A stretch of 64,000 nucleotides of DNA, from positions 62,001 through 126,000 of the forward strand of contig KZ537995.1 in NCBI GenBank assembly GCA_000934665.2, written 5' to 3'. This DNA is from Catajapyx aquilonaris. Its lineage: Eukaryota. The notes beneath the pieces are model-generated. The model did not search any database and had not been told where the DNA came from. It saw only the letters and a list, made by a program, of their open reading frames with translations. This document shows, in pieces, positions 491-63,659 of the stretch. A program made the translations under genes and the position numbers. Each line of letters begins with the position of its first letter. Position 1 is the stretch's first letter.

Positions 491-1590
491 TTAACCAATG
501 ATTATGACCTCTTGTTATGACTAAACTGATTATGATTGATGATTTAATGTGCTAGTACTGCAACGATGTTTTTTTCTCTCTCGGCAATTACACTTCGTAC
601 TTGCAGTAATTACCTGTACTAATAGCCTGGCAGGTGCTGATCAAATTGTAAAGGCAAAGAATCCGTCTGGAAAGCGTCGAACGAACAAAAATTCGACAAA
701 TCCGTTGACGCCATCTTTTTCGAATACGCCGCACGGGGAGTAGGCAGCCACCGGCACCCTGTTCCAACAACAGGGAGTGGGGCGGCCACAACTCCCTGGA
801 AATTAAAAAAAACTGGAATCAAAACTTTGCCATTTTTAGGACATAATTTAGACGGCATAAAATCCGCCTAATTTTTAAACCTTAGATTAAAACCGGTCCT
901 GATGAGAGAATCGGAAGTAATAAATTTGCGAGGGGCAGGGGGGTGGAGGGGGGGTAGGAGGAAGTTGGGTTGTTCCTGCTTCGTTCGAAAAGAAAAAAGA
1001 AAAAAAGAAAAATCATTTGCCAATGGCGACTGTGCACGTTCCAAGACTGCGTCTGGCTCTTTTACTAGTCTGAAGAAGAATATTGGGGCTTCAGAAAGGA
1101 GAAGGGAGGGCCCCACCAGAGGAAGGAGCCGGCTGTGTCTACAAAGAACCACAAAAGGGTAAAGAAAAAGAAGGGATGGAAGGGGACCCCGGGTTGGGAA
1201 GGAGGGGCAACGACCCAGGGTAAATTGGAAGCGGAAATTTCTGGAAATAAGGAAAGTGTTGCAATCGAACGTCTTTTTAACGATGGAATCTTAATTCGTC
1301 GTACAACTGATGAGTCATGTTGGGGGGGCTGGAATAATTGTTGCAAATTGTACCGCACGTAATAAGTAATGGAAGTAAATTTCAATAGTTTTTTGAAACA
1401 AATGTTTCCGCACCCCACACATAGCGTCATTCGACTCGGCTCATCAAGTAGATTCACGAAATACGCAGAATATGCGGCCATTGAGTAGACATGAATATAA
1501 ATAATTGCGGTTGCCTAGAGCAACCTGTGGTTCATTCTGACTGTTGTTTACATTTCCAGTGGAACTGTGGTTGATCCCAAGAGTAGAAGG

Positions 1591-3859
1591 ATGAAGGTGC
1601 TTGTCCTTTGCTGTTTCTTCGCCCTCTTGTGCGTGAGTCTGTGCGAAGATGTGGTGAGCGAACCGGGGATGGGGGAACCGGAAATGGTCGGGGCAGGGAT
1701 GGGCGAGGCGGAGGTGGCGACGGAGGAGGAGGAGCAGATGGACCTGCAGGTGGAGGAGCCTCCGACGGAAGACGAGATCATCTACATCACGCCCACTCCG
1801 CATGGGATAGTCCATTTGGCTGAGCATTTTGACGACCCGGACGCCTTTGGGAAGAAGTGGGTCATGTCGGACGCCAAGAAGGATGGGGCGGACGAGTTGA
1901 TCGCTAAGTACGATGGTGAGCAAAATCAAGTATTGAAAACAAATGTTTTCAGACCATTAACTGATCGTTCTTCCCACAGGAAAATGGGCTATTGAGGCTC
2001 CAGAAAGAGATGGGCTGAAGGGTGACACAGGCCTTGTTCTGAAGTCAAGGGCTAAGCACTCGGCTATCTCCTGCAAGCTGGAGCGTCCCTTCCACTTCAC
2101 GGACACGCCCCTCATTGTTCAGTACGAAGTCACCATGCAGAACGGCCAGGAATGTGGTGGGGCGTACATTAAGCTGCTTACGCTGGACCAGAAGCTGGAC
2201 CTTAGGAATTTCAGAGACAGCACTCCGTACACCATCATGTTCGGACCGGACAAGTGCGGAAACGACTTCAAGATGCACTTCATCTTTAGGCATCGCAATC
2301 CAAAGAACGGAACTGTCACTGAGAAGCACTGTAAGAGGACCGGCGACAAGTTTGACGAGCTGTTCAAGGTAAAATTTGAATCATTATGAAAATGAAGACA
2401 AGGGTTACATCACTTCCTCCCATTTGCAGGATAAGAAGCCTCATATGCTCCGCCTCATGGTGAACCCGGACAGCTCCTACTCCATCCAAATGGACAAGTC
2501 CGTGATTGCCAAGGGCAGTCTCCTGGAGGAATTTGAACCGCCGGTGAATCCACCTCCCGAAGTGGACGACCCTAACGACAAGCGACCTGAAGACTGGGAT
2601 GATCGTGAGAAGATACCGGACCCGGAGGCGGTCAAACCGGAAGACTGGGATGATGATGCACCGGAAAAGATTCCGGATCCGGACGCAGTGATGCCAGACG
2701 GATGGCTCGAAGAAGAGTCGCAGATGATCCATGACCCTGAGGCAATCCGACCGGCTGACTGGGATGAGGAGATGGACGGTGATTGGGAAGCTCCATTGAT
2801 CGATAATCCTAAGTGCGAGAAACCCCCTGGATGCGGACCCTGGGAAGCACCGATGATTCCTAACAAGGACTACAGGGGGAAGTAAGTAACATTTTTTTAC
2901 CGAGGGTTCATAATGAGGCGTCAATACTTTAGTGTACGAGGGACTAGGCTTGTGAGCTAAGTGACTTTGTTCCTTACCAGATGGAGGCCTCCGATGGTGG
3001 ACAACCCGAATTACAAGGGAAGGTGGCACCCACGCAGGATATCGAACCCAGACTACTTTGAAGACAACAGTCCGTACAAGATGAGCAGCATAGGAGCAGT
3101 GGGGTTCGAGATTTGGTCCATGTCGGACGGGATCATTTTCGACAACGTGATAGTGACGGACGACCTCGTGGTGGCCGAGAAGTGGGCCCAGGAGACATTT
3201 GAGCTGAAGATGCAGAAGGTCAACAGGGACTCGGAGGGGCTGTTCACTCGTCTCCTCCTCTACACCAACAAGCACCCTTGGCTGTGGGCAGTGTACGTTG
3301 TCGTTATTGGGCTGCCCTTTGTCATCTTCCTGTCGTTCTGCTGCGGATCCGCACAGGTGAGTCTTCCGTCACAATGCGGATCAATGATCTTGGTCTATTT
3401 ACATGGCTTTATGTTTGTGACATTAACAGGACAAGGATGAGGCCAAGCGGGCCAAGGCGAAGAAGACAGATGAATACACAGCAGACGATGTGCCTTTGGA
3501 AGGGAGTGGTAAGGGAGGTGCTAAGAAGGTGGCAGTCGGAGGGGCCAGGAAAAAGGAGCTGGAGCAAGTCGAGGAGCAAGAGGAGGACGTCGGGAAGGAC
3601 GGGGGAGAAGGGGAGGAGGAGGAAGAGGGAGAGGGCAGCCAGGAGGAGGAGGAGGAGGAGGAGGGAGAGCACGGGGACGCAGGGGCGGAGAAGCACAAGG
3701 CAGAGGCGGAGAGTCGACAGGTCAGTTCCGCCTCTTTAAAATGCCGGCTGTCCGACACAGGCCGAGTCTGAATCACTTCCTCTGTTTCAGGAACCCCCGG
3801 TGAAAGGCTCGGGAGATGCTCCAAGTTCACCTCGGAGGCGCAGAGTCAGGAAGGAGTAG
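1591..3859 (+). CDS. CANX: Calnexin (ER lectin chaperone), 633 aa
   Basis: Exons 1591-1915, 1980-2368, 2430-2881, 2981-3356, 3430-3720, 3791-3859; all introns GT-AG; 1902 nt in frame. Signal peptide [18 protein letters not shown]; calreticulin-family motifs CGGAYIKLL and [12 protein letters not shown]-domain repeats ([22 protein letters not shown]); TM segment [23 protein letters not shown]; acidic tail ending [10 protein letters not shown]. Confidence 0.97.
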
Positions 3860-5077: not shown

Positions 5078-6827
5078 TCAAGATTTGACATTGTCTTTCC
5101 GGCTATGTACAATGTTCTTTATGAAGAACTCTCCCGCTTTGTACGAACTTCTGACTAGTGGTCCGCTTGCTACGTACGCGAACCCCATCTTTTTCCCTTC
5201 GTCCTCCCATTTCTGGAAAGCCTCTGGCGTTACGTACTCCCTGACTTTCAAGTGTCGCTTGGTGGGCTGCATGTACTGTCCCAATGTTAGGCAGTCGACT
5301 CCGACACTTCTGAGGTCCTCCATAGTCTGCTGAATCTCGGCGTCGCTTTCGCCCAGACCCAGCATTATTGAGGATTTGGTGACCATGTCCGACTTGACCT
5401 CTTTGGCATGCTTCAGGACTGATAGGGTCTGCCTGTAGCGAGCACGTGGGTCACGAACGAACGGTGTCAGACGCTCCACTGTCTCAATATTGTGGGCGAA
5501 TACGTCCAAGCCCGAGTTGACTAACGTAGCTACAGACGAAGAGTCTCCTCCGAAGTCAGGCGACAGACATTCAACCAAAATTGACGGGTTGCTGTGGGCC
5601 AATGACAGTTAAAAGTCTGCATACTTCTTAGTATGGGCAAATGAAGCTTACCGACTCTTTAGTTCCTTCACTGTTTCCGCAAAGTGGGCGGCACCGCCAT
5701 CAGGCATATCTAGACAGAGAAGCATAATGAGGGATTGAATGTTTGCCATTACGCAAGTGATATAATACCATCTCTATCTACGGATGTGAGCACAACGTAG
5801 TCGAGCCCCCACTCTGCGATGGCTTTTGCTGTGTTTTCCGGCTCCTTTGGATCGACAGGGGGTGGCTTCCGACTGGTCTTCACTGAGCAGAACCTGCAGC
5901 CCCTGGTGCAGGTGTCCCCCATCAGCATTATGGTGGCCGTGGCTACCTTGTCCGGCCCACCTCCCCAGCACTCCCCGATGTTGGGGCAGCGGGCTTCTTC
6001 GCACACTGTGGCCAAGTTCAGTCCTCTTAGAGTCGACTTGAGCCTATGGTACTCCGCTCCCATTGGAATCTCCCGCTTCAGCCACGGGGGCAAACGCAGG
6101 CGAGCAGATGACGGGTCCGAGGGGGTCAGACGGAGCTTTCCGGAGTACGTGGACAGTTCGGGATCGGTGATGAAATCTGCAAGATCTGGCCCGTCTGCCA
6201 GGCGACGCTTCTTGTCGTCCGGGATGGATGAGTATGGGCATGATGCTGCAACCAGCTGAGGAAAATAATGCACAATGCAATAGCACACTAGCAATGTCGG
6301 GTACCAATGTCGCTCTGCATACTTTACGTACTACGTACAGTACTACACGAACATCACGTACTATGTACTCTACATGCGTACTGGACATACTTTGCATACA
6401 TACTCCACATATTTGACGTACTATGTACAGTACTACACATACTTTATGTAGTACGTACGCTACATACTTGGCATACGTACGCTACGTACTTGTCATACGT
6501 ACTCGACATACTTTATGTTCTACGTACTCTATATACTTTTTAATTACAATGATAATGCCATTTCCAGTTATTAAACTTTAAAAAATTAGCAGATAACCAA
6601 TTAGTCTCTTACACTCTTTCCTACTGTAGTGTAATTAGTTATGTAATTTAGTTAATTTGTGCTGCTATTTAACCACAATTTAACCACGATTTGTTCTCAG
6701 TATGTACAGTGTGTATGTGCGAATCGTAACAAGATATGTAACCTCAATTAAAACAGAGCAAATTTAAGCTTACATTCGGAGATTTTGAAGCCGTTCGAAA
6801 AGAACAGCTGCGGATGAGCGCCGCCAT
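5078..6827 (-). CDS. LIAS: Mitochondrial lipoyl synthase (radical SAM), 370 aa
   Basis: Minus-strand exons 6827-6774, 6255-5769, 5709-5652, 5591-5078; GT-AG introns; 1113 nt in frame. Arg/Ser-rich presequence-like start [16 protein letters not shown]; motifs [20 protein letters not shown] (CX4CX5C), CTRGCRFC (CX3CX2C) and C-terminal [11 protein letters not shown]. Confidence 0.97.
6310..6540. repeat. TAC/GTA-rich degenerate simple repeat in LIAS intron 1
   Basis: Dense TACGTA/GTAC/CATAC words with repeated ACATACTTT blocks. Confidence 0.6.
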
Positions 6828-23140: not shown

Positions 23141-23253
23141 NNNNNNNNNNNNNNNNNNNNNNNNNNNNNNNNNNNNNNNNNNNNNNNNNNNNNNNNNNNN
23201 NNNNNNNNNNNNNNNNNNNNNNNNNNNNNNNNNNNNNNNNNNNNNNNNNNNNN
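23141..23253. other. Assembly gap (113 N) flanked by poly-C
   Basis: Run of N directly visible. Confidence 0.99.
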
Positions 23254-37400: not shown

Positions 37401-40400
37401 GGACAACAGTGAGCCCTACTAGCATGTTCTACTACACATTGAGGGATGGTCAAGGTTGTCAATCACAAGTAAAATTCGCAGTAGGGTGCAATGTTGTCCA
37501 AAAATTCTCTGGCACAATCTCACCCCAATTGACGGTATACTTTAAGATCCAGCAGCATGCTGTTCTCAGAGCCTTTTGTTCTTCATAACACGATATGTCC
37601 GAGAGAGAACAAAAATAGTCATGTCAGCTTGTTCATCCCTGGTAGGAAGCACGATAAAGACCTAACTTGAAATCTGTTTTTGCGAGGCTTATCTCCGGAT
37701 AAGATCCGGGTAATACGCTGCATTATCTCTGGGAATTGAGCGTGCATGTCGAGCACAAAAGGGGAGGGTAGATGGGTATGGGGGGTGATGCCAGCTCTAG
37801 TTTCCAGTGCTAATCAAAGCGTAAGCAAAACCTCCGCCGGTTTTTGCCGATATATAGTTGGAAGCCATAACGATCCGGTAGATTTTCATGGCACATCCGG
37901 CGCTCTTTTGACTCTTTATGGTATATATAGCACTGATTTTTTGACAATTAATTTCCTGCAGCAAGTGCTAGTTTGCGACAACCTGGCTCTGCCTTTCCGA
38001 GATGAGAGCTTCGACGCTGCTTTGTCCATCGCGGTCATCCACCATTTTGCCACCACTGAGAGAAGAGTGGCGGCTCTCAGGGAATTGGCACGGGTACTGC
38101 GCATCGGAGGAAGACTCATGATTTCGGTATGGGCCATGGAGCAGAGACACAGGAAGGTAAGAGAGAGAGAGAAGAAAATGTCAAGTTGTAACCCCCCCCG
38201 ACAGGAACATCATCTACAAAGCAATCTCCTGGAAAACACGAGTTTTTATATTTGGGTTTCACACCCTGCCGACAGAGTCATTTGTAGTTTTTAAAGGTGG
38301 AACTACTGTAGAATCTATTTCTGTCTGGAGATTTCAAAACTAATCTCGAAACAATTCGGAGAACAGAGCGGGAAGGAATTTTTTTCTTCTTCATCGCGGA
38401 TTCCAATTTCCCCCCCTTGGAAATTCTTGTAGAAGGAACCTTTTTTTTACCGCCCCTCTAGGCAATTCTCAAGCGAATCCAAAAGGAAACGACTCACGTT
38501 CTAATGTACAGTGTTTCCGTTCCAACACTTTTTATACCCATTTTCGCCATCCCGGATATTCCAGGTGAAATGCCACGTGGCTCACAAGAAGAATCGGCTC
38601 AGAAATTGAGTTTGTGCCTTCCATGGCCTTTAAAAAATGTAACATCACGTATCCCGATAATTCGCTATAGCAAACGCCTACAATTTTAAATAAGGCACCG
38701 GAGAGCAATAATGATTTAAACAGCTCATGCTTCCAGCCAATATTTTTTTTCCGAGCATTAAAATTAACCATTTTACTGTTTCACAAGTGCATTGTGGCCC
38801 CCTGTATCAGGAGGCTAATTCTGCTAAAAATCCTCACAATCGGTTCACAACGGGGGAGTCGTAATTGGTGAAAGCTTAATGACTCTGGCTGGGCTGTGTT
38901 GGCAAAGTTTGTGTAATTGCAGCGATAATTAAACCTTCGGTGGTTTTAATATTAGGTGGCGCATTCCGCATTGGGGAATATTATTGCCCGGGAATAGTTG
39001 CAAATACGTCTGCACTTTTTTTTTCGGTATGTGCCAAACACCCCCCCGGTTTAATTACAACGCGTTTGTTCAGTACTGTCGCTAGAAACATGCCTCGCTC
39101 GATCTGGAGATGGGATGATTGCCAGGGATCATCGTATAATGATCCTCTGCAAAGGCTGATCTTCCCCTAATGAAACAGCGACGAAATTGCGCCGATTCCG
39201 CCATGTTAACTCACGGAGATTTCGCCTTTTGTATTTGAGAAAAGCCTCCCTAATTGAAATAGACCCAATGTTTTTTTTTCGTTAGCGGAAAAAAAACAAG
39301 TAAACGAGAGGAGGAGAAGGTAAACAATGCTGGGGAGTTTGGAAAGAATTTTTTGGAGGAGGTTTGGCACAAGTGGAACGTAACAAAGGGGGGCGAAGTT
39401 AGAGAGAGGCCAAAAGGAATTCGAGTCACGATTTGAAAGTTTGCAACCTGCCTCGCCTGCTTACATGGTAGTAGAGTTTTTATTTATACGCCTTACCCTC
39501 CCCTGGATGGAACGTGAGTGAAAATACGGAGCTGCAGATTTTTGTCGATTTCTCTTGAAAATTTCCAATGTTTGTTCCTTGCGGTGTTTGGCTCGAGCGG
39601 CAATAATTTGCTAAACAATCATGCCTATATTTTGTAGCATTTTGCGCACGGGAAAAGCCTGCAATGCGGACATAAGTTTTTAGCATAAATATTTCATCAG
39701 CCAGACTTGTGCAATTGTAATATTGTTCACGCGTGTTGAATTGAGTTCTTTTTTTGCGTTAAAAATTCACATCGTTTAGGTAAGGTCTCAAGAGATTATA
39801 TGTAGCATTGTCAAGAACAAAGGACTCTAGTACATGCACAGCCCCTGAGCAATTCACACGCGACATCATGTATTTCAGGATTTTAGGATTTAAAACGGGG
39901 CCAGCTGCTGTGTTACAAAATAATATAAATGTAAATTTGTCGAAATTATTAGTGCTGAATGTTACACCATATGGGATGACATCACGTTGCGCGTGGCATG
40001 AACTTGTATTCGAACCAGTTAACATATTGTTTTGCGAATTCAAAATCACAATCTTTCAATATAAATTACTATACATGACTGTGAAATGCATTTCAGTTTA
40101 ATATGCAGCGCGTTTCAGTAAGCGAGACACGCTTTGTTACGTTTGCTGTCTGTTGATATGGTTTCAAATAGCAATGACATAACATATTGGATTGTGTGTC
40201 GGAATTGACCTTCATTATACCAGCGCCACATTTTTAAATTAAATTGTACAGTACTGTATATTTATATTGTATATACTTACACAGTTATGTATAGTACGAT
40301 AAAATGTGACCTAGTGTTCAATTTAAAGTTGTACCTGTATGTCACGTTGTACAGTGTCGTACCCTAATTTATACCTCTTTTAGGCGCGCAGTAAACGAGT

Positions 40401-52948: not shown

Positions 52949-55900
52949 AAAACCCTTTTGAGGGGTTTCCTTCATATTGTCGTGGTGGTTGGGAGTGGAA
53001 GGCTGAATGACGTCGGCTCAATATTGTGGCTTCTCAGGGGCGTCGCTTTTTTACCTGGAGTGTTTTGGGAGTGCTCGATTCGATAAGCAGATCCCGAGTC
53101 AAACAGGTCCTGCCTGACACCAGGTGGCGGGAGTGGTCGAAAATTATCTTCTACACAAAATTTGAATAAAAAAATAATAATCAAACTGTACTTAAGCTAT
53201 AACAAAAACCTGAGGTCATTCCCGCCATATGTTGTCGAATGAATTTTGTGCCGAAAATGAATCCCCCCCCCCCCTTTTCAGCGACGCCTCTGGCTTATGT
53301 ACTGGTTAGAACCGGAATATTCAAAATTAGGTAATACACAGTACGTTTAGTGGGAACTTTTCAGTTCTTATATATGCCAATAGAATGGGACCATGTCGAT
53401 TTTACTCACGTACAAAGTTTTTGGCTCTGATATTCAGTCAGCCTTTACATCTCGTTGATTCGCTTTTGGTCAAAATGTTGTTACTTCACACATAAAAAAA
53501 ATATTAATAATAATCAAACCTTGAGGTGGTGTATTTTTATGTAGGAACTCGTTATTAAAAATTTTAATGGCTTGATGAGTTGGATGATGTAGTTTGCGAG
53601 AACATGTTTCCTGCCAATTCTACAAAAAAAAACACAAGGTAGAGAAATATTATTATGTAAGTGACAATTGAGCAGTAGGATGAGTTTTAAGAAGAAAACT
53701 TGTTCCTAAAGAAGTGAAGCGATAGAGAGAGAATTTTGTGAGCTAATATTTTTGTTCCTGTAATAGCATTAAGTTGCTAAAATGCTGATTTTAATATTGC
53801 ATTGCGTACCTATGCTAATTCCGCCAAAGTAGGAAGTGTACAGCCGGCATTGAGATGGTGCTTAGAGTAATACCCTACATTTTGTAGGTTGAGGGTACGT
53901 CCGTAAGTGATGAAAAAAAAAAGTTGTTACACAAAGTATTGAAACAGTTAGGTAACATACACTTTCCATGATAAGTCAAATAGCCACTGGTTTTTAAAGG
54001 AAAAAAAGGGTGCTTCTTGGAAAAAAATTGACAACACCTTGCATTTACTTGACACTGGAAAGTTTGTCACGTTACCGCGCAGTATTATATTTAAAAATAA
54101 TAACACCTCCGAGAAAAGGAACAGTCTGAAAATGACACATATGATGCAATCACTTTCGTTTCAGTGTCGTGTGAGCGCAACGAGTGTTTACATTTCTGTA
54201 GTGCGTAAGTTACCACCTGCAGAACATGCAGTTTTGTAGAATGCATATAAGGGCACGTATAGTTCCAGAATCACACTCGACAAGAAGAAAAAAATAATTA
54301 TGAGAGTGTATGAAGAAAAAAATGATTTTGCCAATTGACGTCATTTGGGCCTTCCAAACCACGATGTGGCTTTATTTAAAACTGAAATACATGCTCTTAC
54401 AGCGTTGAGGGAACCATTTTTGAATTTTAAAAACAACAACAAAGTATTGAGGAAATCTTGCCAATGTTTTCTTTGTCTTTCTTCCAATCTCCTGTGATAA
54501 GAAAAAAAAAACGTAAGCGTGTTGGGATCTGTTTTAAGCCTTTGAAAGAACCGGGGCCCGTTTGCCAATTTACGTTGAAACACCTTTGTGTTGCAATGAA
54601 CCATTTCAACAACAAAAAAGGCGTAATAAAATAGCCCCCTCTCATAACCTACCCCTCAAGTTGAATATATGTAGATTTAACATAGTGCCGAGTTTATGAT
54701 TATAATCTTGTCGTTGAAGAGTTGTTTAAAAATCTATTATACAAAACGTTGAACAATAATAATTGCCATTCTTTGAGAGTTCAGATCGATCAAAAACCTT
54801 ATATAGAGAGCCTACCCGTTTTTAGAGCCCATCGCACACTAGTTTTTACAACCTTGATTATTATAGCCTCGGAAGGCACCTGTTATAATCATCAGCTCCG
54901 ACATGTTTAGCAGGATAACTCAACATGTCGGAGCTCATTGGTACGCACTACTAATACTGTGATGAGATATAACCACCGAATTTTGTTATTTTTTATTTTT
55001 GTGGTCGAGGGTAGAAATTATAAGGGTGTAGCGTGCGATGGGTTGCGATTATGAGGCAGGGTTTGAAGTGGTGCAGTACATAATGTACATAATATCATGC
55101 AAAAATTAATTCCCCCCCCCCCCCNCATAGGCTGCATGTCTAGTGCCCTGAAAGTGATGCCACCATGCGTCCTCATCTCAACAGCATTGTTGTAGTACGT
55201 TATTCATCATACAGCATAGACGTAGTCAAAGTTTCGCCTCAATTTTCAATAAAAAATATAAGAAGAGAGATTGCCCCCCCCTCCCATCCCCCGCAAAGCG
55301 GAAAAAAAGTTACTGTCTTTTATGAGTTTTAAGGGGGAAATGCGAATGGTAATGAATGTGTGTTTATCCATTACAGTGCAATAGGCGATCGATCGTCTCC
55401 ATGGTTGTCACAATATTGTATGTGCCTCAATAGATTTTACTACTTTGTATCATACAGTTATGTTGGATATTGTGTACTGTACATATAAATTATGATCTGT
55501 AACTCCTGAGCTGAAACATGGAAGAGGCAAAAATAATTTTTGTCTTGATTAATTTTTTTTAGCCCGAACAAGGTACTGTGGCCAGCAAGATTCAACCACT
55601 GAATATTGGCGTGCAGAAAAAAAGGTGGTGATGAAAATAATGTTTAGAGTTTAGGGAGAAATGAAGTAGGCATAATAATGATTCAATATTATTTCAGCAC
55701 AAGTGCGAAGTCATACTTTCATGATTTGTACACATTGATTGTTACAGTGACGTTTATGAATTACTAAGTGCAAAAATTGGCCAGAAGCTCTCAGATCCAT
55801 TAAAACCCATTTTAAGGAAGCGATTAGTTCAATGCATTGTCAAATGCAGCAAAAAATGACTAGAGCCTATCGGTATGCTTACATGGAAGAAACGTTGCCA

Positions 55901-56076
55901 AATAATATTTTGCTGAAACATATCTTCGCACGTGTCAAAAATTAGTAACAGCAAGTGAAGTTTCATATGTATTTAACAATATTATTTAGCAGGCAGTGTG
56001 TATCATAGGAACTTAACCGCAACAATGTAACATATTCAAAATTTCAGCCGTTTGCAGAAAAGGTCAAAAATAACTC

Positions 56077-56608
56077 ATGTTCGACATGGTTCTAGTAAGT
56101 ACATGGTTTACTGTGCATTGTTTGAAATTATATTTTATGCATATCATAATATTTATTGCAGAATTTCTTATTACGTTTCTTTTACTCTGAACCGGACCCC
56201 TTTCCGGATTTGTCACATCTCGTAATGGTCTTTGCGTGGATTTGCGTGTTCTCCACAGTAATATTTTGGTATGGACTCGTCATGGTAAGGCAAAAAACAA
56301 CAACAACAACGTCATAGTGTAACTTTTCACAACTTTGATTCTTCCCATCCTTACAGAACAGCCCGAAATTTATGGTGCTCTACTTGCTGCTCAACCTATT
56401 TGGTTTTATTTTGGGCCTTATTCTGGACCTGATAGCAGTGGCTGGACATGATGGCTCAGGAACCACCCTGCTGGTAGTTCAGACCATACTGACAACAATA
56501 TGGCGCTTCTACTTCCTCCTGATGACCACCGCATGTTACCACCGTCGATATATCACCTCGAGACGGTCAATAAGGAGGATAGGTCGCCAATCAAATAATT
56601 CTTACTAA
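56077..56608 (+). CDS. Small uncharacterised 3-TM membrane protein, 130 aa (LAPTM/DUF4728-like motif)
   Basis: Exons 56077-56094, 56162-56284, 56357-56608; GT-AG introns of 67 and 72 bp, both phase 0; 393 nt; in-frame stop just upstream (56071); AATAAA at 56639. Hydrophobic segments LVMVFAWICVFSTVIFWYGLV, FMVLYLLLNLFGFILGLILDLIAV and LLVVQTILTTIWRFYFLLMTTACY. Confidence 0.7.
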
Positions 56609-56913
56609 GGAACACGTTTAAAAAAAACAGAAGAGACAAATAAATTACTTGTACAGCCAAAACCTGAATAGCCAGATAAATTTTAGTGCTAATTAGGCTA
56701 AAACTCATTACTTTCAATGTTTAAGCCTCCCGCTTGAATATGACGACACTTTTCCATGAAGCGGACAAATTTCAAACTAAAATTCGCCATTTTGTGTCCC
56801 AAGCGGGTCCACATGTTTTTTTTTCGAGCACGTGATTAAATCCTTGGACCAATCAGGACCCAATGTGCTCATTGCAGCCTCCCAAAGAAAAGTACTTTTT
56901 TTTTTTTCCCCTC

Positions 56914-56923
56914 GGTACTTTCC
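56914..56923 (+). promoter_or_regulatory. kB-like site GGTACTTTCC upstream of C19orf12 copy 1
   Basis: One mismatch to GGGACTTTCC, at the position homologous to the perfect site of copy 2. Confidence 0.45.
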
Positions 56924-57893
56924 CCCTGGTACTTTCACTAGTCATACACACCAGACAACGAAACACCAAAAGAGGAGCACTGGAGAAGAGGTGAGAGTAC
57001 GGTGTGCCGCTTTGATCAATAATTGTTGTACGCACCACGTGCACTTGGGTACTGAAGATTGTTGGCAAGGTAATGGTGGGTATGCCACTTTGTCAGATAA
57101 AAATAAAGAGTCATGCAGCTATAAAAAGTTGTCATGAGATAAGGTTTTCCTGTCACTATCATAGATGAGTAACCGCGGATTGTTGCTGCGATTATTTTAA
57201 GTAAGCTTGTTACACGTGTACTTGTTGCTGAAATTAATCTGGGTTACAGCGGGAGTGTTTTTTTTTGGGAAGGAGCCAATGGGACGTAGCGCAAGATATT
57301 CAGGCAGTGTTGACTCAGCTTCCGAAGTAACATCTGACGTGTAGGTTTGTGCTCAAAACCAGCGGTGTTTGACTTGTTTCCACGAGCCTTTGGACACCAG
57401 GTAACTTCCTTTTTACTGCTACAGTATGTGCTCAGATAGAGGTTCCTTGATATGGATGTTTAGCGTACGTAGCACTGACCGCACCAATCCGTCGTGAGCG
57501 TACTTGTTAGCGGGGGAATTTTCTCATGGCACATACTGGGATGCCAGAAGGGCATGCACTGTATCACGTGTGGGTGTGTAGATTTGGATCATTGCGAGAA
57601 GTTCACACATGACGTTTGCTCTTGGGATTTTAAAAAGTGTAACCTATGTTCCCCTTTTCTTGATTTGCTACATATTTGATAATATTTCACAATTACACCC
57701 TGATGTTGTAAGATTACTGAAGAGGGGGAAAAAATATCTGCATTTTCAAATATCTAGTGACCAACATTTTTATCTGCATGTGCGTAATTAGGCGTTTGTG
57801 TACTCCTAGATGTCTATGGACTAGTCCGGAGCTTGGTAAAAACTTGGGATCAAATGAAGAGACTGATGGCACAATTAATTTCCAGGTGACGCC

Positions 57894-58389
57894 ATGCCAA
57901 TCAATGGTCATGAGATTCTGGAGGTGTGCCAACAATTGGCAAGTGACAGGAACATGAGGGTGACTGTGACCCAGTCTGCGAAGGGAGGTCTCATGGCTGG
58001 GGCAGGGGCCTTTGTGGGAGGCATATGCATGGGACCTCTAGGACTTGCCATTGGTAGCGGCCATTAAATATCAGATATAGTTAATGTTGGTTATCTGGTG
58101 CGACCGTCCGTTAATGGCTATTTCACTTTCAGGAGCAACAGTAGGTGGCTTGATTGCATATGCCAATGCAGAAGAATTCAAGCCTGCTGCAATGGCGATC
58201 ATGACAATGCCTGAGCATGAGAAAGCAAGACTGATTGAATCCGTTCAACGAATCATTGCTGATCTGGACATCTCCGATGCCACGAGGCTGCTTCTCCTGC
58301 TGAACGGCAATCAGATTCTGACTGCCACCATTGTTGACGAGATCGTAGGAGTCCTGAAGCAGCATTGCGTCATGGTCACAATGGACTGA
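57894..58389 (+). CDS. C19orf12: C19orf12/nazo homolog, copy 1, 138 aa
   Basis: Exons 57894-58053 and 58133-58389 (417 nt). MPINGHEILEVCQQLASDRNMRVTVTQSAKGGLMAGAGAFVGGICMGPLGLAIGATVGGLIAY...EFKPAAMAIMTMPEHEKARL matches the C19orf12 family (MRVTV..S.KG, glycine-zipper segment, FKP...I..LP). Confidence 0.93.
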
Positions 58390-59055
58390 ACATTTTGTTA
58401 GTGACACCTTGTTGATATTATACGGTATGTTCCACCCAGTGAAAGCCAAGCTGTAACACCCTCCGGAATGTGTGTCAGTATTTTTATACACCATACTTTT
58501 TTATTAAATTTGTTCCGGAATGCAATACGATCGTGTCGCCTTTAGGTCATGTTGGACGACAACGAGCAGCAATTAAAATGAAAGATCTGTCATAAGCGGC
58601 TGGTTGCCTTTTTATTTCACATTAGCTGGCATGGTCCTGGTATTTTCTTTTCTCATTTTCAGTTTTGTAACTTCAGCATGCATTCGTCCGGTTCACATGT
58701 TTCTTCGATACGGGATTGAAATTTTGAAAGCAGAATTGATACGAGAAGAGAATCAGTCTATAGAAAATCTTACATGGTAATTCTTTAAATGTAAATTTTA
58801 CAGTAAAATTGACATCCCATTGGTACCCACAGAGTGTAATTATTGTCAAAAAGTCATTATGTTCTCTATATTTAAGCATCCTGCTTGAAGGACACTGCGC
58901 CACTGCTGCAAGAAGTGGACAAATTGCCAAATACATCTGCGGTGGTGGGTCCCACAGTCAACTGTTTATCGAGCATGTGAGAGTCTTGGACCAATCCAGA
59001 GCCACCTTTTCTGTCATATGTTCACTGCATATGCAACAGAATGAGCTTTTCCCTT

Positions 59056-59065
59056 GGGACTTTCC
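59056..59065 (+). promoter_or_regulatory. Canonical NF-kB site GGGACTTTCC upstream of C19orf12 copy 2
   Basis: Exact match to the classical kB decamer, 86 nt before the first non-coding donor (59142), with a CCAAT box at 58991. Confidence 0.6.
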
Positions 59066-60010
59066 CTGGTATCACGCCTGAAACTTTCACTAGCCATTCA
59101 CCAAACAATGATACTCTCAGGAGAGGTTCAGGACTGAAGAGGTGAGAGGACTGCCGCTTTGATTTAAAAATGTTGTACGCAGCATGTGCGTTTTAGTGGA
59201 GTACCGCTTGCTTAAGGTTGCTGACGGAGATGTACATTAATTGTTGGCAGTAATGTTCCTCACATACAAAAGATGAGGCCGTGTGACTGGTGCATGTTCT
59301 TAAACCGCCATTAGATAACGCTGAGTATGATGGTCTGTTACCAAGGAAGTTGTCACGAGATAAGGGTTTCCTGTCACTGTGACGAATGGGATGTGGCACA
59401 AGATATTCAGGTGGTGTTGATTCACTTGTCAGTTTCCAAAGTAACTGCTTACAAGTAGGTTTGTGCTCCAGAGCAGTGGTGTAAAGTAGTGTGTTGACCT
59501 GTTTCGTTGAGTCTTTGCACATTATTGCAGGTAATTTACTTTTAACTGCTGCGGCATGTGTGCAGAAATTAGTTCCTAGATATGAATGATTGGATGGTGT
59601 ATGTCAAGTTACTGGTAACCACACCGTCATGTGACCAATTTGTAATGAGCTTACTCTTAGCAGAGAATTTTCTTCTTTCACATATTCTTGGGGTGTCAGA
59701 AAGACATGCTGTGTAGATTTAGATCATTGCCAGATGTGATTGTATTGATGATTGTGTTCAGGAAAACAACAACGGTAAGCTGTATAATCCTCGATAATAT
59801 TTCACAATTGGACCCAGCTAAATGTTGTCAGATTGCTGAAAATATTGAGCGAAAATTTCAAAAGTCTAGTCACCACCATTTTTATCTGCAGGTGATGTAA
59901 TTAGGCATTAGTCATCTGCTAACAACGGACTTCTCCAAAGCTTGGTTTAAAAAACTGGCATGCTGCTTATTTCTAAATGACGATGACACAATTTATTTCC
60001 AGGTGACACC

Positions 60011-60536
60011 ATGACAATCAACAGTCATGAGATCCTGAAGGTGTGCCAGCGACTGGCAAATGACAAGAACATGAGGGTGACGGTTAGCCAGGCTCTTCGA
60101 GCAAGTCTCATCACTGGATCAGGGACCGCTGTCGGATGCCTTTTCTTGGGACCTCTAGGAATTCCCATTGGTAAGGGGTTCAGCATGACTTAGAGCTCTT
60201 GACTCAATGACTAATGGCCATTAAATATCAGATTGTTAATGTAGGTGAACCTATGCAATGATGGCTATTTTACTTTCAGGGGGAGGAATAGGTATCTTCA
60301 TTGCATGGGCCACGTCAGAAGACTTCAAGTCTGCTGCATCAGTAATCATGGCAATGCCTGAATCTGAGAAGGCGAGGCTGATTAAGTCTGTTAAGCGAAT
60401 TATTGCTGATCTGGACGTCTCTGATGCCATGATGCTGCTTCGCATTCTGAATGGCGATCAGCTTCTGACTGAGAACATCGTTATGGAGATTGCGAGAGCC
60501 CTGACTCGGCAGTCTTACAAGATCAGAGTGGACTGA
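60011..60536 (+). CDS. C19orf12: C19orf12/nazo homolog, copy 2 (divergent), 138 aa
   Basis: Exons 60011-60170 and 60280-60536 (417 nt), with exon lengths and phase identical to copy 1; AATAAA at 60604. Confidence 0.9.
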
Positions 60537-60932
60537 ACCACAAGGTGTCTACAGTGGTCACCGCCCGCTCCATATGCCCCGTGCGGGCTGGGGGTCGAGG
60601 GAAAATAAACCACATTGAGCCTGGACTTGGTTGTTGTTGGTTGGAAATTGGGAGTGTCTCACCCTCATTGTTTTACAGGTCACAGCAGGTATAAAGGATC
60701 GCTTATTAGAGTAATTAGACCTTACAAGTGTCAGTTTTAATGTGAGGTAGGCTACCGTATTGTTCGTTTCCATACTGTATTTGGCTGCAGCGAGAGCCAC
60801 CTGGCGTCATAATTTCGAACCATTCGTCGGCCATGCTTGATTCCAAGATGGCGCCCTTCTGATGCAAGCAGATGCTTTTTTTGGTGGACAAAATCGGACT
60901 TGATTTGGTAGAAATAACTCAAATAAGTCGAG

Positions 60933-63659
60933 ATGGGGACCCAACTGGCCCAGAAGGAGGACGTGCTGCAGGCGGTCCTCGTGGCGGACTCGTTCAACAG
61001 GAAGTTCGGTCCGCTCGTCCTCAACAGGCCAACGGTTGGTAGCATCAGGTGGACCATATGCTTCATCAGACATAATCTTGATTATTATTTTGACAGTGTC
61101 TTCTGCCGCTGTTGAACACGCCGATATTGGATCATACTCTTCAGTGGCTGTGTGTGGCTGGGGTCCAGGAGCTTTTTCTGTGCGTTCAAAGCCATCCGAA
61201 CCGCATTAAGGACCACCTGCAACAATCGAGATGGGACAACAACTCAATGTCCGTATCCGTTATTGTGTGTGATGGAGCACGGTCTGTCGGGGATGTCCTT
61301 CGCGACTTGGATGCCAAGGGGACTCTGCGTACCGACTTCTTGCTTTTGTCCGATCCAGATGTGATATCAAACTTGCCTTTGAAGCCGCTGATGAAGATGC
61401 ATCGGGACAAATGCAAATTTGACAGATCCAATGTTATGACTGTTGTCGTCCGTAAAGCTTGTCCTGACCACCGATCACGATTGCCTGACACTGACCTTCT
61501 GCTGGTGACCCACCCTGGCACCGATCGTTTATTGCAACTACAGCATTCTAACGGGAGGAGACTGGGGCTTCCACTGGAGCTATTTCAAGAGAACCCGGAG
61601 ACAGACATTCGCTTTGATCTGAGTAACACTGGACTATCCGTATGCACTCCTGCTGTCCCACCATTGTTCTCGGACAATTTTGACTACCAGACTATGGATG
61701 ACCTGGTCAAAGGGGTTCTTCAGCATGAGGAGACTCTTGGTAACAGCATCTACCTTCATGTCCTTGAAGGTCGGCACTATGCAGGGAGAGTGACCAATCT
61801 TCGGGGCTATCATGCTGTTAGGTAACGACAAAGTGACATTACAAAGTAGTTACAACTCAGGTACAATTAATTTTGCTTTCATTACCGTGACTCATGTTTA
61901 AGTGCGTGAAGTGATTAGCAGCTTTCAATGTAATTCTTTCTGATATGTTCTGAATTTTATGTGAGCATAACGATAAATATTGGCTTTTATGCTTATCTAG
62001 TGAAAGTTCTTCATTGGAGAGAAAATAGTCGAAAGTGAGCAGTAAAAAGCGAAGTGAAGATTTCCACATGTGAAAGGGTCATAACTTTAATTCGCTTTTC
62101 TCCTCCTGTCAGTCGTGACTTGATGCAGCGGTGGGTGTATCCAGTGGTACCGGATGGAAGCTATTCCCACCATCCTGGAAATATTTACAAAGGGGACGTC
62201 CGATTGGCCAGGTTTGTTGTTTCATGCCTTATTGTTGGATTTTGAATCATAACCATATTGCTTGTAATAAACATTAATATTACGATTTATGTCCACCTTT
62301 CATACTATCGTGTTACATTATTTTTATAGCCTCTCTTGCTCGTATAAGCCAAAGTTACCTCAGTAGAATTATGTTATGCCGGACATGAACAGTAGTATTA
62401 AATGACAATGTTTTCCAGAGGATGTGTACTGGAGGAGGATGTTTTGATTGGCAGTGGGACATCCATTGGGAAGGATAGCACAATTAAGCATGCCTCAGTT
62501 GGGCGCAACTGTACTATTGGATGTGGAGTTCACATCAGCGATTCGCACTTGATGGATGGCTGCATCATTGGGGATGGGTGTCAGATCCGATCCTCTTTGC
62601 TGGCAGAAGGGGTATGCTTGGGGAAAGAGGTTAATCTGAAGTCAAATTGCGTGCTGGGCGAGAAAGTGAAGATTAAATCTGGCTGGTCAGGCGAAGGACA
62701 GCGGATGATTGCAAGTGATGGTGGATGGGCTCTGTACGAAAGCAAGGATGGGTCTGATTCCGAAGAAGAGTCAGATGGAGATCTGATTGATGCTGGTGTT
62801 GAGTCAGACAGCACTGCTAGCCACAGTGACAGGGAGGACACTTCACTTGAGGACCTTTCACTCAGGGGATCCCCAGCAATGGTGGATGACTCAAAAAGTA
62901 ATGGTTGCCAACTGAGTTAACATTACAAGATTTATTTGTTTCAGCATGTTACATCATTTTAACTTAACCTGTTGCAGTATTCAAGAGTGAAGTGGAGGAC
63001 AGCCTCACACGTGGTCTTGAAGAGCGTGTGAATTGTGAAAACCTAATTCTCGAGATCAACTCCTCCAAGTATGCCTACAATGTCTCCATGGCAGAGGTCA
63101 ACTCCATCGTCACCAAGGCTGCACTGCAGGTGTCACACAACAAGTCAGCTGCTACAACCACTCCTCAGCTGATATCCGCCATGATTGGGAAAGAAGGGGG
63201 ACTTACCTACTTCCTGCCACTCTTCAGGAACTACATCAAGAGTGCAGATTCACAGGGTCACTGCCTGGCAGCCATTGAGGTTAGGGTCACTTCATACGTA
63301 CGTCTCACTTGGGCTAATTAAATTTATTTCATGATACAAGCCTATGCAAACATTATTTTCCTTGCTTTCTGTGAGATGTCAAAATGAAGAAGCTGGTGTA
63401 GTCATTAATAATAATAATGGTTATTTTCCAACAGGAATGGTGTGCATCTGATGTGACCAGCAATGCCACTTTGCCCACCAAGATATTCCACTTTTTTTAC
63501 CAGCACGACATTCTCTCAGAAGACAGCGTTCTCCAGTGGTATCAGTCCCCTCCTGACAACCCGGATGTGGGGAACACTGTCAGGAAGCAGGTGGAGCCAT
63601 TCGTCAAGTGGTTGCAGGAAGCAGAAGAAGAAGAGGATGATTCAGATGATTCAGACTGA
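60933..63659 (+). CDS. EIF2B5: Translation initiation factor eIF2B subunit epsilon, 643 aa
   Basis: Exons 60933-61034, 61097-61821, 62113-62211, 62419-62897, 62978-63279, 63435-63659 (1932 nt). Motifs LQAVLVADSFNRKF.P, LFSDNFDYQT, RDLMQRWVYP, hexapeptide-repeat LbH region, LILEINSSKYAYN and W2 domain ending FVKWLQEAEEEEDDSD. Confidence 0.97.

What the first reader, a model, noticed from the sequence alone, without database searches (positions are those of the whole stretch)
56840..59150. Both nazo/C19orf12 paralogs keep an NF-kB site at the same promoter position: candidate inducible antiviral locus
Seen: copy 2 has a perfect GGGACTTTCC (59056-59065) and copy 1 has GGTACTTTCC (56914-56923), 86 and 77 nt before the homologous first donors. 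In both, a conserved CCAAT precedes the site and ACTTTCACTAG follows, while surrounding DNA has diverged. Both first introns also keep GATAAGG.TTTCC, and copy 1 has GGGGAATTTTC near 57513. Established: Drosophila nazo is an antiviral gene induced by the STING-IKKbeta-Relish pathway. Inference: NF-kB control of C19orf12 may be conserved in this lineage and retained after duplication.
Basis: partly seen in the sequence, partly recalled or inferred. Interest (0 to 1): 0.75.

Follow-up and report, generated by a model that had tools for sequence, protein, structure and literature searches.

The report
Tandem C19orf12 genes with kB-like sites
Two neighbouring copies of a small membrane-protein gene (the family of fly nazo and human C19orf12) share an inherited promoter, and one copy carries a textbook NF-kB site; this is a reasonable but untested hint of immune induction, not evidence of it.

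Summary
GGTACTTTCC is at 56914-56923 and GGGACTTTCC at 59056-59065. Each follows a conserved CCAAT block by exactly 65 nt and precedes ACTTTCACTAG. They sit upstream of two intact, spliced, 138-aa genes of the C19orf12 family (PF20721).

The claim of "retention" carries little weight:
- The pair is a moderately young tandem duplicate: dS 0.39, and 73-83% identity in alignable non-coding DNA.
- 152 of 1400 ten-column windows of the non-coding alignment are at least 9/10 identical, so this conservation is ordinary.
- The one difference (G to T at position 3) takes copy 1 out of the GGGRNNYYCC consensus.
Copy 2 does use the homologous donor.
- Matches to GGGACTTTCC with up to one mismatch are not enriched in the window: 6 found, 4.31 expected.

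The background is sound. Passages in print say fly Nazo is NF-kB/STING-regulated, and that relatives in a shrimp and in the black soldier fly rise on virus infection.

My reading: the promoter is inherited. Copy 2, the faster-evolving copy, carries a plausible but untested Rel-type response element. Copy 1's site is degenerate. No orthologous promoter, TSS map or challenge data could be obtained. It is a candidate new member of a known kind, of modest interest.

The parts
56914..56923 (+). kB-like decamer of copy 1, GGTACTTTCC. It has T where the consensus GGGRNNYYCC needs G at position 3.
59056..59065 (+). Consensus kB decamer of copy 2, GGGACTTTCC. This is the only exact copy in the window.
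56905..56932 (+). Two 14-nt tandem units, TTTCCCCTCGGTAC and TTTCCCCCTGGTAC. The copy 1 decamer spans their junction. A second junction gives GGTACTTTCA, running into ACTTTCACTAG.
56843..56854 (+). CCAAT block CTTGGACCAATC of copy 1. The CCAAT is at 56849-56853, 65 nt before the decamer.
58985..58996 (+). CCAAT block CTTGGACCAATC of copy 2. The CCAAT is at 58991-58995, 65 nt before the decamer.
56931..56941 (+). ACTTTCACTAG, copy 1. It starts 17 nt after the start of the decamer, and its ACTTTC core is 14 nt after the decamer's.
59083..59093 (+). ACTTTCACTAG, copy 2. It starts 27 nt after the start of the decamer, so a 10-nt indel separates the copies here.
56829..56834 (+). E-box CACGTG of copy 1. 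The homologous position in copy 2 (58974-58979) reads CATGTG.
56965..57069 (+). Copy 1 exon 1, minimal extent as covered by an RNA-derived contig. The donor in use is the GT at 57070.
57126..57157 (+). The best-conserved non-coding block (30/32 identical with 59347-59378). It lies in intron 1 and holds GATAAGGTTTTCC.
57886..58053 (+). Copy 1 exon 2, with the ATG at 57894. It encodes the glycine-rich hydrophobic part of the C19orf12 domain.
58133..58598 (+). Copy 1 exon 3. The coding part runs to the stop at 58387-58389; the 3'UTR is covered by the contig as far as 58598.
59077..59141 (+). Copy 2 exon 1a. The 3' end at 59141 is shown by the joint 59141|60003. The 5' limit is only an estimate from binned depth.
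   Evidence: the 5' limit is my own arithmetic on its table 2
59347..59378 (+). Copy 2 counterpart of the conserved intron block, holding GATAAGGGTTTCC.
59473..59530 (+). Copy 2 alternative 5' exon. Its 3' end at 59530 is shown by the joint 59530|60003. The 5' limit is an estimate.
60003..60170 (+). Copy 2 exon 2, with the ATG at 60011.
60280..60567 (+). Copy 2 exon 3. The stop is at 60534-60536, and the contig covers it as far as 60567.

Best explanation
This is a tandem pair of 138-aa, three-exon genes of the C19orf12/nazo family, duplicated within this lineage. Both copies inherited one compact promoter with no TATA box that I could see by eye. In order it holds an E-box, a CCAAT box, a short 14-nt tandem repeat whose unit junction forms a Rel/NF-kB-type decamer, and then ACTTTCACTAG.

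The decamers sit at the same position because of common descent. That much is shown. Only copy 2 has a consensus kB site. Copy 2 is also the copy whose protein has moved further from the family.

My inferred mechanism is as follows. In copy 2 the decamer works as a Rel-family (Dorsal/Relish-type) response element just upstream of the start of transcription, so this paralog can be induced. Copy 1 has a T in the critical G-run, keeps at most a weak site, and runs mainly on the CCAAT/E-box part of the promoter. This would parallel the broadly expressed CG3740 and the NF-kB-induced nazo of Drosophila.
For: Gene identity and structure:
- PF20721 matches the exon-2 peptides at 53.4 and 38.6 bits, above the cut-off of 30. 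The exon-3 peptides continue the profile, positions 71-155 and 74-147.
- Both spliced frames are intact at 138 aa.
- All five joints within the two genes are GT..AG, and the two within the coding region lie where the reading frames require them.

Duplication:
- Homology runs over 56700-58391 and 58849-60538.
- The proteins are 77/138 identical, with dS 0.39, dN 0.28 and dN/dS 0.73.
- No third copy is present in the window.

The site:
- GGGACTTTCC fits GGGRNNYYCC and is the only exact copy in 64 kb.
- About 0.027 GGGRNNYYCC matches are expected per 150 bp.
- The decamer is called the consensus NF-kB oligonucleotide in a tick study (PMC3680474, methods passage).
- It was used as an NF-kB reporter element in flies (PMC3471920, methods passage).
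- It lies just upstream of the 5'-most RNA-derived contig base of copy 2 (about 59077, my estimate) and 65 nt after a CCAAT box.

Asymmetry between the copies:
- All 50 of 50 full-length library homologs score higher against copy 1 than against copy 2.
- The exon-2 Pfam scores are 53.4 against 38.6 bits.

Family precedent (passages read):
- The C19orf12-like shrimp gene PmVRP15 rises 9410-fold after WSSV infection (abstract and passages).
- Two C19orf12 homologues with consecutive gene IDs are listed as up in virus-infected black soldier flies (table rows; the methods define log2 fold changes).
Against: - No test of binding or induction was possible.
- Conservation of the decamer is no more than neutral carry-over: 152/1400 windows are at least 9/10 identical.
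- The decamer would lie within a few tens of nt of the start of transcription, possibly at about -12 to -21 in copy 2. That is very close for an enhancer-type site, and contigs cannot fix a TSS.
- The same G-run also completes a TCCCNNGGGA palindrome at 59050-59059. More than one consensus can therefore be read into it.
- In flies Nazo is a late cGAMP gene, and only 57% of late genes had predicted kB sites.
- Fast evolution of copy 2 fits relaxed constraint as well as a new function.
- The homolog set was fished with copy 1's exon 2, which biases the comparison towards copy 1.
- The lineage is not established. The best named relatives of the neighbouring eIF2B-epsilon exon are insects and a spider, at 39-44% identity.
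Confidence: 0.38

Rival explanations
1. Neutral carry-over plus a chance match. Neither decamer is a working NF-kB site. The two promoters look alike because the duplication is young enough for non-coding DNA still to align, and transcription is driven by the CCAAT (NF-Y-type) and E-box elements of an ordinary metabolic or membrane-protein gene promoter.
For: - 10.9% of ten-column windows are at least 9/10 identical, and there are 17 identical runs of 8 nt or more, most of them in the intron.
- At the roughly 70% identity implied by dS 0.39, the chance of 9/10 or better is 0.15.
- Matches with up to one mismatch are 6 against 4.31 expected.
- Copy 1 breaks the consensus at a G of the GGG half-site.
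- The best-conserved promoter pieces are the CCAAT block (12/12) and ACTTTCACTAG (11/11), not the decamer.
- Fly Nazo and human C19orf12 also have lipid and organelle roles that need no immune control (passages).
Against: - A perfect 10-mer consensus this close to the transcribed 5' end has a prior of only about 1-3% per promoter.
- It occurs in a gene family with documented NF-kB or virus induction in three arthropods.
- The CCAAT-to-decamer distance is exactly 65 nt in both copies, although the spacer is only 22/59 identical and carries compensating indels.
Confidence: 0.37
2. Another factor reads the repeated ACTTTC(C/A) motifs. Each promoter has two ACTTTC cores (56917 and 56931; 59059 and 59083). 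They could be half-sites for another GGAAA/GAAAGT-binding factor (NFAT-, IRF- or EBF-type; these consensus motifs are recalled, not taken from any call), or a core-promoter element placed at the start of transcription.
For: - ACTTTC is the part shared by all four motif instances, and ACTTTCACTAG is better conserved (11/11) than the decamer.
- The copy 1 site is part of a 14-nt tandem repeat, so the repeated unit rather than a kB decamer may be the functional entity.
- TCCCTTGGGA overlaps the copy 2 decamer.
- ACTTTCACTAG with up to one mismatch occurs 4 times against 1.10 expected, and 4 of 100 shuffles give 4 or more. This includes an exact third copy at 61997-62007(-) next to other ACTTTC motifs.
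- In copy 2 ACTTTCACTAG probably lies inside the transcribed region (estimate).
Against: - No full ISRE (GAAANNGAAA) lies in either promoter. The one STAT-type TTCNNNGAA in the region, at 56752 in copy 1's upstream flank, is not kept in copy 2.
- None of these alternatives matches a consensus as completely as GGGACTTTCC matches kB.
- The other ACTTTCACTAG copies share no flanking homology with the promoters.
Confidence: 0.15
3. Both decamers are working NF-kB elements kept by selection since the duplication, together with intronic GATA plus kB-like modules, so the whole locus is an inducible antiviral locus.
For: - The decamers occupy the same aligned position and lie the same 65 nt from the CCAAT box.
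- The GATAAGG[T/G]TTTCC block is the best-conserved non-coding block, 30/32 identical.
- There is family precedent.
Against: - GGTACTTTCC fails GGGRNNYYCC.
- Conservation is at the neutral level.
- A 30/32 block is expected with p about 0.001 to 0.017 per position over roughly 1000 positions, so it is not rare.
- GGGTTTCC and GGTTTTCC are not 10-mer kB matches (one search lists none there).
- The intronic GGGGAATTTTC has lost its G-run in copy 2, where the aligned sequence is AGAGAATTTTC.
Confidence: 0.1

Closest known systems
Drosophila nazo (CG11671) and its paralog CG3740, the two fly C19orf12 homologs
   Same: They belong to the same protein family (PF20721). There are two paralogs per genome. 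One fly paralog (nazo) is reported as induced by the NF-kB pathway and as a STING/Relish target, and the other (CG3740) as more widely expressed (passages).
   Different: Orthology of either window copy to nazo or CG3740 was not tested. The window pair looks like a duplication within its own lineage: the copies are 56% identical to each other, against at most about 45% (50 of 110 aligned residues) to any of the 50 library homologs compared. No induction data exist here. In flies Nazo is a late cGAMP-induced gene, possibly a secondary response.
PmVRP15, viral responsive protein 15 of the shrimp Penaeus monodon
   Same: It is a small (137 aa) protein with one predicted transmembrane helix, and its BLAST relatives include 'protein C19orf12 homolog'. 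It is strongly virus-responsive, rising 9410-fold after WSSV infection (abstract and passages of PMC3956821).
   Different: In shrimp the protein favours virus replication rather than restricting it (abstract). A search for 'VRP15' together with 'promoter' found no paper in the library, so I could not check which factors drive it.
Two C19orf12 homologues of the black soldier fly induced by a solinvivirus
   Same: Two genes with consecutive gene IDs (119657115 and 119657116) both appear in the table of immune-related differentially expressed genes, with values 2.53 and 4.85/4.04 (table rows of PMC12952803). This suggests a tandem pair that responds to virus.
   Different: Adjacency is inferred from the IDs only. 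No promoter analysis appears in the passages I read, and the lineage is different.
The immunoglobulin-kappa / HIV-type kB element GGGACTTTCC
   Same: The copy 2 decamer is letter for letter the 'consensus NF-kB oligonucleotide' (PMC3680474). It is also the core of the Ig/HIV element used as an NF-kB reporter in flies (PMC3471920).
   Different: Those are tested elements, usually multimerised or further from the start site. Here there is a single untested copy abutting the transcribed region, and the paralog carries GGT in place of GGG.

Membership tests
C19orf12-like protein family (Pfam PF20721) | Significant match to the family profile across the domain | tested here: met
   The exon-2 peptides score 53.4 and 38.6 bits (cut-off 30) on profile positions 17-67 and 15-65. 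The exon-3 peptides score 19.4 and 23.2 bits on positions 71-155 and 74-147; each is below the cut-off alone but continues the same profile. The Atlas's nearest cluster is also PF20721.
C19orf12-like protein family (Pfam PF20721) | Small protein of about 140 aa with a glycine-rich hydrophobic segment, expressed as a spliced mRNA | tested here: met
   Both spliced frames are 138 aa. The glycine-rich stretch is visible. The joints 58053|58133 and 60170|60280 and the joints from the 5' exons were seen in RNA-derived contigs.
NF-kB / Rel binding site (kB element) | Match to the consensus GGGRNNYYCC (consensus recalled; the exact decamer is named as consensus in PMC3680474) | tested here: met
   Copy 2 only: GGGACTTTCC at 59056-59065.
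NF-kB / Rel binding site (kB element) | The same consensus in the paralog (copy 1) | tested here: not met
   GGTACTTTCC at 56914-56923 has T at position 3 and is absent from the GGGRNNYYCC hit list. It is a one-mismatch variant.
NF-kB / Rel binding site (kB element) | Lies in promoter or enhancer DNA upstream of the transcription start | tested here: inconclusive
   RNA-derived contigs start downstream of both decamers, at 56965 in copy 1 and at about 59077 in copy 2 (estimated). Contigs cannot define a TSS.
NF-kB / Rel binding site (kB element) | Conserved beyond the neutral level | tested here: not met
   Between the paralogs, 152/1400 windows are conserved at least 9/10, and there is no excess identity compared with the intron (Fisher p 0.37). 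Orthologous promoters could not be obtained.
NF-kB / Rel binding site (kB element) | Bound by a Rel-homology protein and needed for induction | not testable with these tools
   This needs EMSA or ChIP and reporter assays.
STING-IKKbeta-Relish-regulated antiviral genes (nazo-type) | Transcript induced by virus or cyclic dinucleotide in a STING- and Relish-dependent way | not testable with these tools
   No RNA holder was listed for the stretch, and the only run is a single unlabelled one kept as contigs.
STING-IKKbeta-Relish-regulated antiviral genes (nazo-type) | Orthology to nazo | not tested
   No named fly sequence was available.

The most novel reading that the evidence does not exclude
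The link from NF-kB to C19orf12 is old and extends beyond flies. In this lineage a tandem duplication split the gene into a conservative, constitutively driven copy and a fast-evolving, Rel-inducible antiviral (or virus-exploited) copy. The split would be controlled largely by one G/T difference in a kB site built at the junction of a 14-nt promoter repeat. This would be an independent replay of the fly CG3740/nazo division of labour.
Probability: 0.15. Interest if true: 0.5.

Novelty: new member of a known kind. Interest (0 to 1): 0.28.

Why it matters
C19orf12 is a human disease gene (MPAN/NBIA) whose molecular role is still debated. Its arthropod relatives turn up repeatedly as virus-responsive genes: Nazo in flies, VRP15 in shrimp, and the black soldier fly homologues.

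If copy 2 here proved Rel-inducible, it would add a further lineage to that pattern. It would also offer a natural pair of promoters differing by one base in the kB core, a convenient system for asking how a membrane and lipid-homeostasis protein was recruited into innate immunity.

As it stands, the finding is a motif-level prediction with no evidence from conservation or expression behind it. Its practical value is as a well-specified, cheap experiment rather than as a result.

Tried and rejected
- Whole-genome search for further paralogs or promoters: no genome is held for this window.
- RNA evidence: no RNA holder is listed. The single run X1 is of unrecorded kind and is kept as contigs. 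Its spliced joints show that it derives from RNA. Its depth figures (52.9 for the copy 1 contig, 2.0-4.7 for the copy 2 contigs) cannot rank genes by the tool's own caution, so I give them no weight.
- Cover upstream of the contigs: the lack of cover upstream of 56965 and over 58832-59058 is no evidence that the decamers are untranscribed.
- Orthologous loci: the metagenome and viral collections gave 62 and 71 pattern matches, none confirmed by tblastn.
- Word-indexed protein searches with the exon-3 and exon-2 peptides found nothing.
- Lineage: Rfam gave 0 matches and the Atlas gave no useful taxa. The only pointer is the eIF2B-epsilon exon, whose named hits at 39-44% identity are insects and a spider, followed by fungi.
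- Earlier notes of this scan: nothing relevant.
- The bacterial-type promoter and terminator scan is irrelevant to an intron-bearing animal gene.
- Goto et al. 2018 (PMC6267954) is not held, so its claims are cited only through other papers.
- A search for 'VRP15' plus 'promoter' found 0 papers. PMC5529560 mentions a promoter only as the T7 promoter.
- ISRE and STAT readings: no GAANNGAAA-type ISRE (GAAANNGAAA) lies in either promoter. TTCCATGAA at 56752 is not kept in copy 2.
- Origin from a dispersed repeat or LTR: the promoters match nothing else in the window apart from each other.
- Test for a more conserved promoter: identity from the decamer to the donor (60/72) and upstream of it (161/220) does not differ from the intron (573/736; p 0.37 and 0.17).
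Full report
**What is there**

The window is intron-bearing animal DNA. Positions 56.7-60.6 kb hold two head-to-tail genes on the + strand.
- Joining the reading frames 57894-58053 + 58133-58389 gives an intact 138-aa protein. So does joining 60011-60170 + 60280-60536.
- The exon-2 peptides match Pfam PF20721 (C19orf12-like) at 53.4 and 38.6 bits, above the cut-off of 30. The exon-3 peptides continue the same profile.
- One public run of unrecorded kind (coded X1), kept as contigs, was laid on 55200-62000. It shows six GT..AG joints, five in these two genes and one in the next gene, so it derives from RNA.
- The joints are, for copy 1, 57069|57886 and 58053|58133. For copy 2 they are 59141|60003, 59530|60003 and 60170|60280.
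- Both genes are therefore transcribed and spliced as the frames predict. Copy 2 has two alternative 5' exons.
- There is no third copy in the window.

The neighbours are an upstream + strand gene whose last exon ends near 56608 and, downstream, eIF2B-epsilon.

**The observation**

- GGTACTTTCC is at 56914-56923 and GGGACTTTCC at 59056-59065.
- The block CTTGGACCAATC is identical in both copies. Its CCAAT starts exactly 65 nt before each decamer.
- ACTTTCACTAG is identical in both.
- GATAAGG[T/G]TTTCC lies in both first introns, inside a block that is 30/32 identical.
- GGGGAATTTTC is at 57513-57523.
- The GT of GAAGAG|GTGAGA lies 77 and 86 nt downstream of the decamers.

- In copy 1 the decamer spans the junction of two 14-nt tandem units, TTTCCCCTCGGTAC and TTTCCCCCTGGTAC. 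The same two-unit layout is recognisable in copy 2, so the small repeat predates the gene duplication.
- The GAAGAG|GT donor is seen in use only in copy 2. The copy 1 contig runs unbroken from 56965 to 57069 and uses the GT at 57070. Contigs drop rare isoforms, so a minor use of 56991 is not excluded.

**Is it more than chance and descent?**

- The two units are homologous over 56700-58391 and 58849-60538. Homology stops at the stop codons, and the 3'UTRs do not align.
- Synonymous divergence is 0.39, which predicts about 70% neutral identity.
- At 70% identity, a given decamer stays at least 9/10 identical with probability 0.15. Empirically, 152 of 1400 ten-column windows of the non-coding alignment do so.
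- There are 17 identical runs of 8 nt or more.
- Identity around the decamer does not exceed that of the intron (60/72 against 573/736, p 0.37).

The shared position of the two decamers is therefore explained by the duplication, and 'retention' carries no information about selection.

Two points remain.
- A perfect consensus sits in one specified promoter. About 0.027 GGGRNNYYCC matches, or 0.010 one-mismatch matches, are expected per 150 bp.
- The CCAAT-to-decamer distance is 65 nt in both copies, across a spacer that is only 22/59 identical and has compensating indels. One of those indels is a T-run, which changes length easily.

Window-wide, one-mismatch matches are not enriched: 6 against 4.31 expected, and 26 of 100 shuffles give as many. 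The same G-run, for example, completes a TCCCNNGGGA palindrome at 59050-59059.

**The two copies are not equivalent**

- The only difference inside the decamer, G against T at position 3, removes copy 1 from GGGRNNYYCC.
- The proteins are 77/138 identical, with dN/dS 0.73.
- I compared both copies with 50 library homologs of 130-150 aa, chosen out of the 150 listed. All 50 score higher against copy 1 than against copy 2.
- That set was retrieved with copy 1's exon 2, which favours copy 1. Even so, the margin is large, and the Pfam scores for exon 2 agree.
- Copy 2 is thus both the faster-evolving paralog and the only one with a consensus kB site.
- Both E-boxes that read CACGTG in copy 1 (56829 and 57036) read CATGTG at the homologous places in copy 2.

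**Position relative to transcription**

Contigs cannot define a start site, so only lower bounds exist.
- Copy 1 RNA covers at least 56965 onwards.
- Copy 2 RNA covers from about 59077 onwards. This is my arithmetic on the binned depth: 0.74 x 227 / 2.6 is about 65 nt ending at 59141.
- A CCAAT box 65 nt upstream of the decamers fits a start site close behind them.
- If so, the decamer lies within a few tens of nt of the start, and in copy 2 ACTTTCACTAG would be transcribed.
- By eye I saw no TATA box in either promoter.

**Background in print**

- Passages of PMC10883546 state that Drosophila has two C19orf12 homologs, nazo (CG11671, mainly gut) and CG3740 (widely expressed). [quoted passage not shown] 2018.
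- A review calls Nazo a downstream antiviral gene of STING signalling regulated by Relish (PMC11817114).
- Goto et al. itself is not held.
- The cGAMP preprint lists Nazo among late-induced genes and reports predicted kB sites in only 57% of late genes, which suggests a secondary response (10.1101/852319).
- Outside Drosophila, shrimp PmVRP15 (137 aa, one transmembrane helix, BLAST relatives including 'C19orf12 homolog') rises 9410-fold after WSSV infection and favours the virus (PMC3956821, abstract and passages).
- Two C19orf12 homologues with consecutive gene IDs are in the table of genes up in solinvivirus-infected black soldier flies (PMC12952803; log2 fold changes are defined in its methods).
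- GGGACTTTCC is called the consensus NF-kB oligonucleotide in a tick study and is the core of an Ig/HIV-type reporter used in flies.
- The library searches for C19orf12 together with immune terms turned up no promoter dissection of any C19orf12-family gene.

**Lineage**

No genome is held. The C19orf12 peptides found nothing in the word-indexed collection. The neighbouring eIF2B-epsilon exon finds insects (orthopterans, odonates, a mayfly, thrips, hemipterans) and a spider at 39-44% identity, ahead of fungi. The organism is probably an arthropod or another protostome without a close annotated relative in that collection, but this is not established.

**Verdict**

What is shown:
- the gene identity;
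- the tandem duplication;
- the splice structure;
- the motifs and their common descent;
- the neutral level of their conservation;
- the asymmetry of the two copies.

What is inferred:
- The copy 2 decamer is a working Rel-type element that makes this paralog inducible (about 0.4).
- About equally likely, it is a chance consensus in an ordinary CCAAT/E-box promoter.

Even if true, this would be a further example of something already described in flies, and suggested in shrimp and the black soldier fly. It is of modest interest, but it offers a clean one-base experiment.

Noticed in passing
The homologous GT in copy 1 (CCAG|GTAACT, near 57400) is conserved. Part of the intron conservation may therefore reflect alternative exons or an internal promoter.
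   Followed up: partly
window 57514-57750: An unspliced RNA-derived contig (237 nt) lies inside intron 1 of copy 1 and begins exactly at GGGAATTTTC. It could be retained intron, an alternative start, or an accident of where the contig breaks.
   Followed up: no
window 61997-62007 (- strand): A third exact ACTTTCACTAG lies between two eIF2B-epsilon exons. CACTTTCG, CACTTCG and a CCAAT lie just upstream on that strand. It shares no flanking homology with the C19orf12 promoters.
   Followed up: partly
window 59050-59059: The palindrome TCCCTTGGGA (pattern TCCCNNGGGA; 2 in the window against 0.75 expected) overlaps the first four bases of the copy 2 kB decamer. Copy 1 has CCCCTCGGTA at the same place.
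   Followed up: partly
window 56829-56834 and 57036-57041, against 58974-58979 and 59183-59188: Both CACGTG E-boxes of copy 1 read CATGTG at the homologous places in copy 2. This is the kind of change that CpG decay produces.
   Followed up: no
window 58390-58598 against 60537-60760: Homology between the two gene copies ends at the stop codons and the 3'UTRs do not align (30 ungapped columns in all). The duplication boundary, or a later replacement, lies right after the coding sequence.
   Followed up: partly
window 60896-60931: In the 5' region of the eIF2B-epsilon gene the X1 contig differs from the window by three substitutions and a 9-nt deletion at 60912. This may be a polymorphism between individuals or strains.
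   Followed up: no
window 1519-3771 (+), 5078-6330 (-), 37740-38294 (+), 23141-23253: Other content of the window includes a calreticulin-family (calnexin-like) gene, a radical-SAM gene that looks like lipoyl synthase, a class-I methyltransferase exon, and a 113-N assembly gap.
   Followed up: partly
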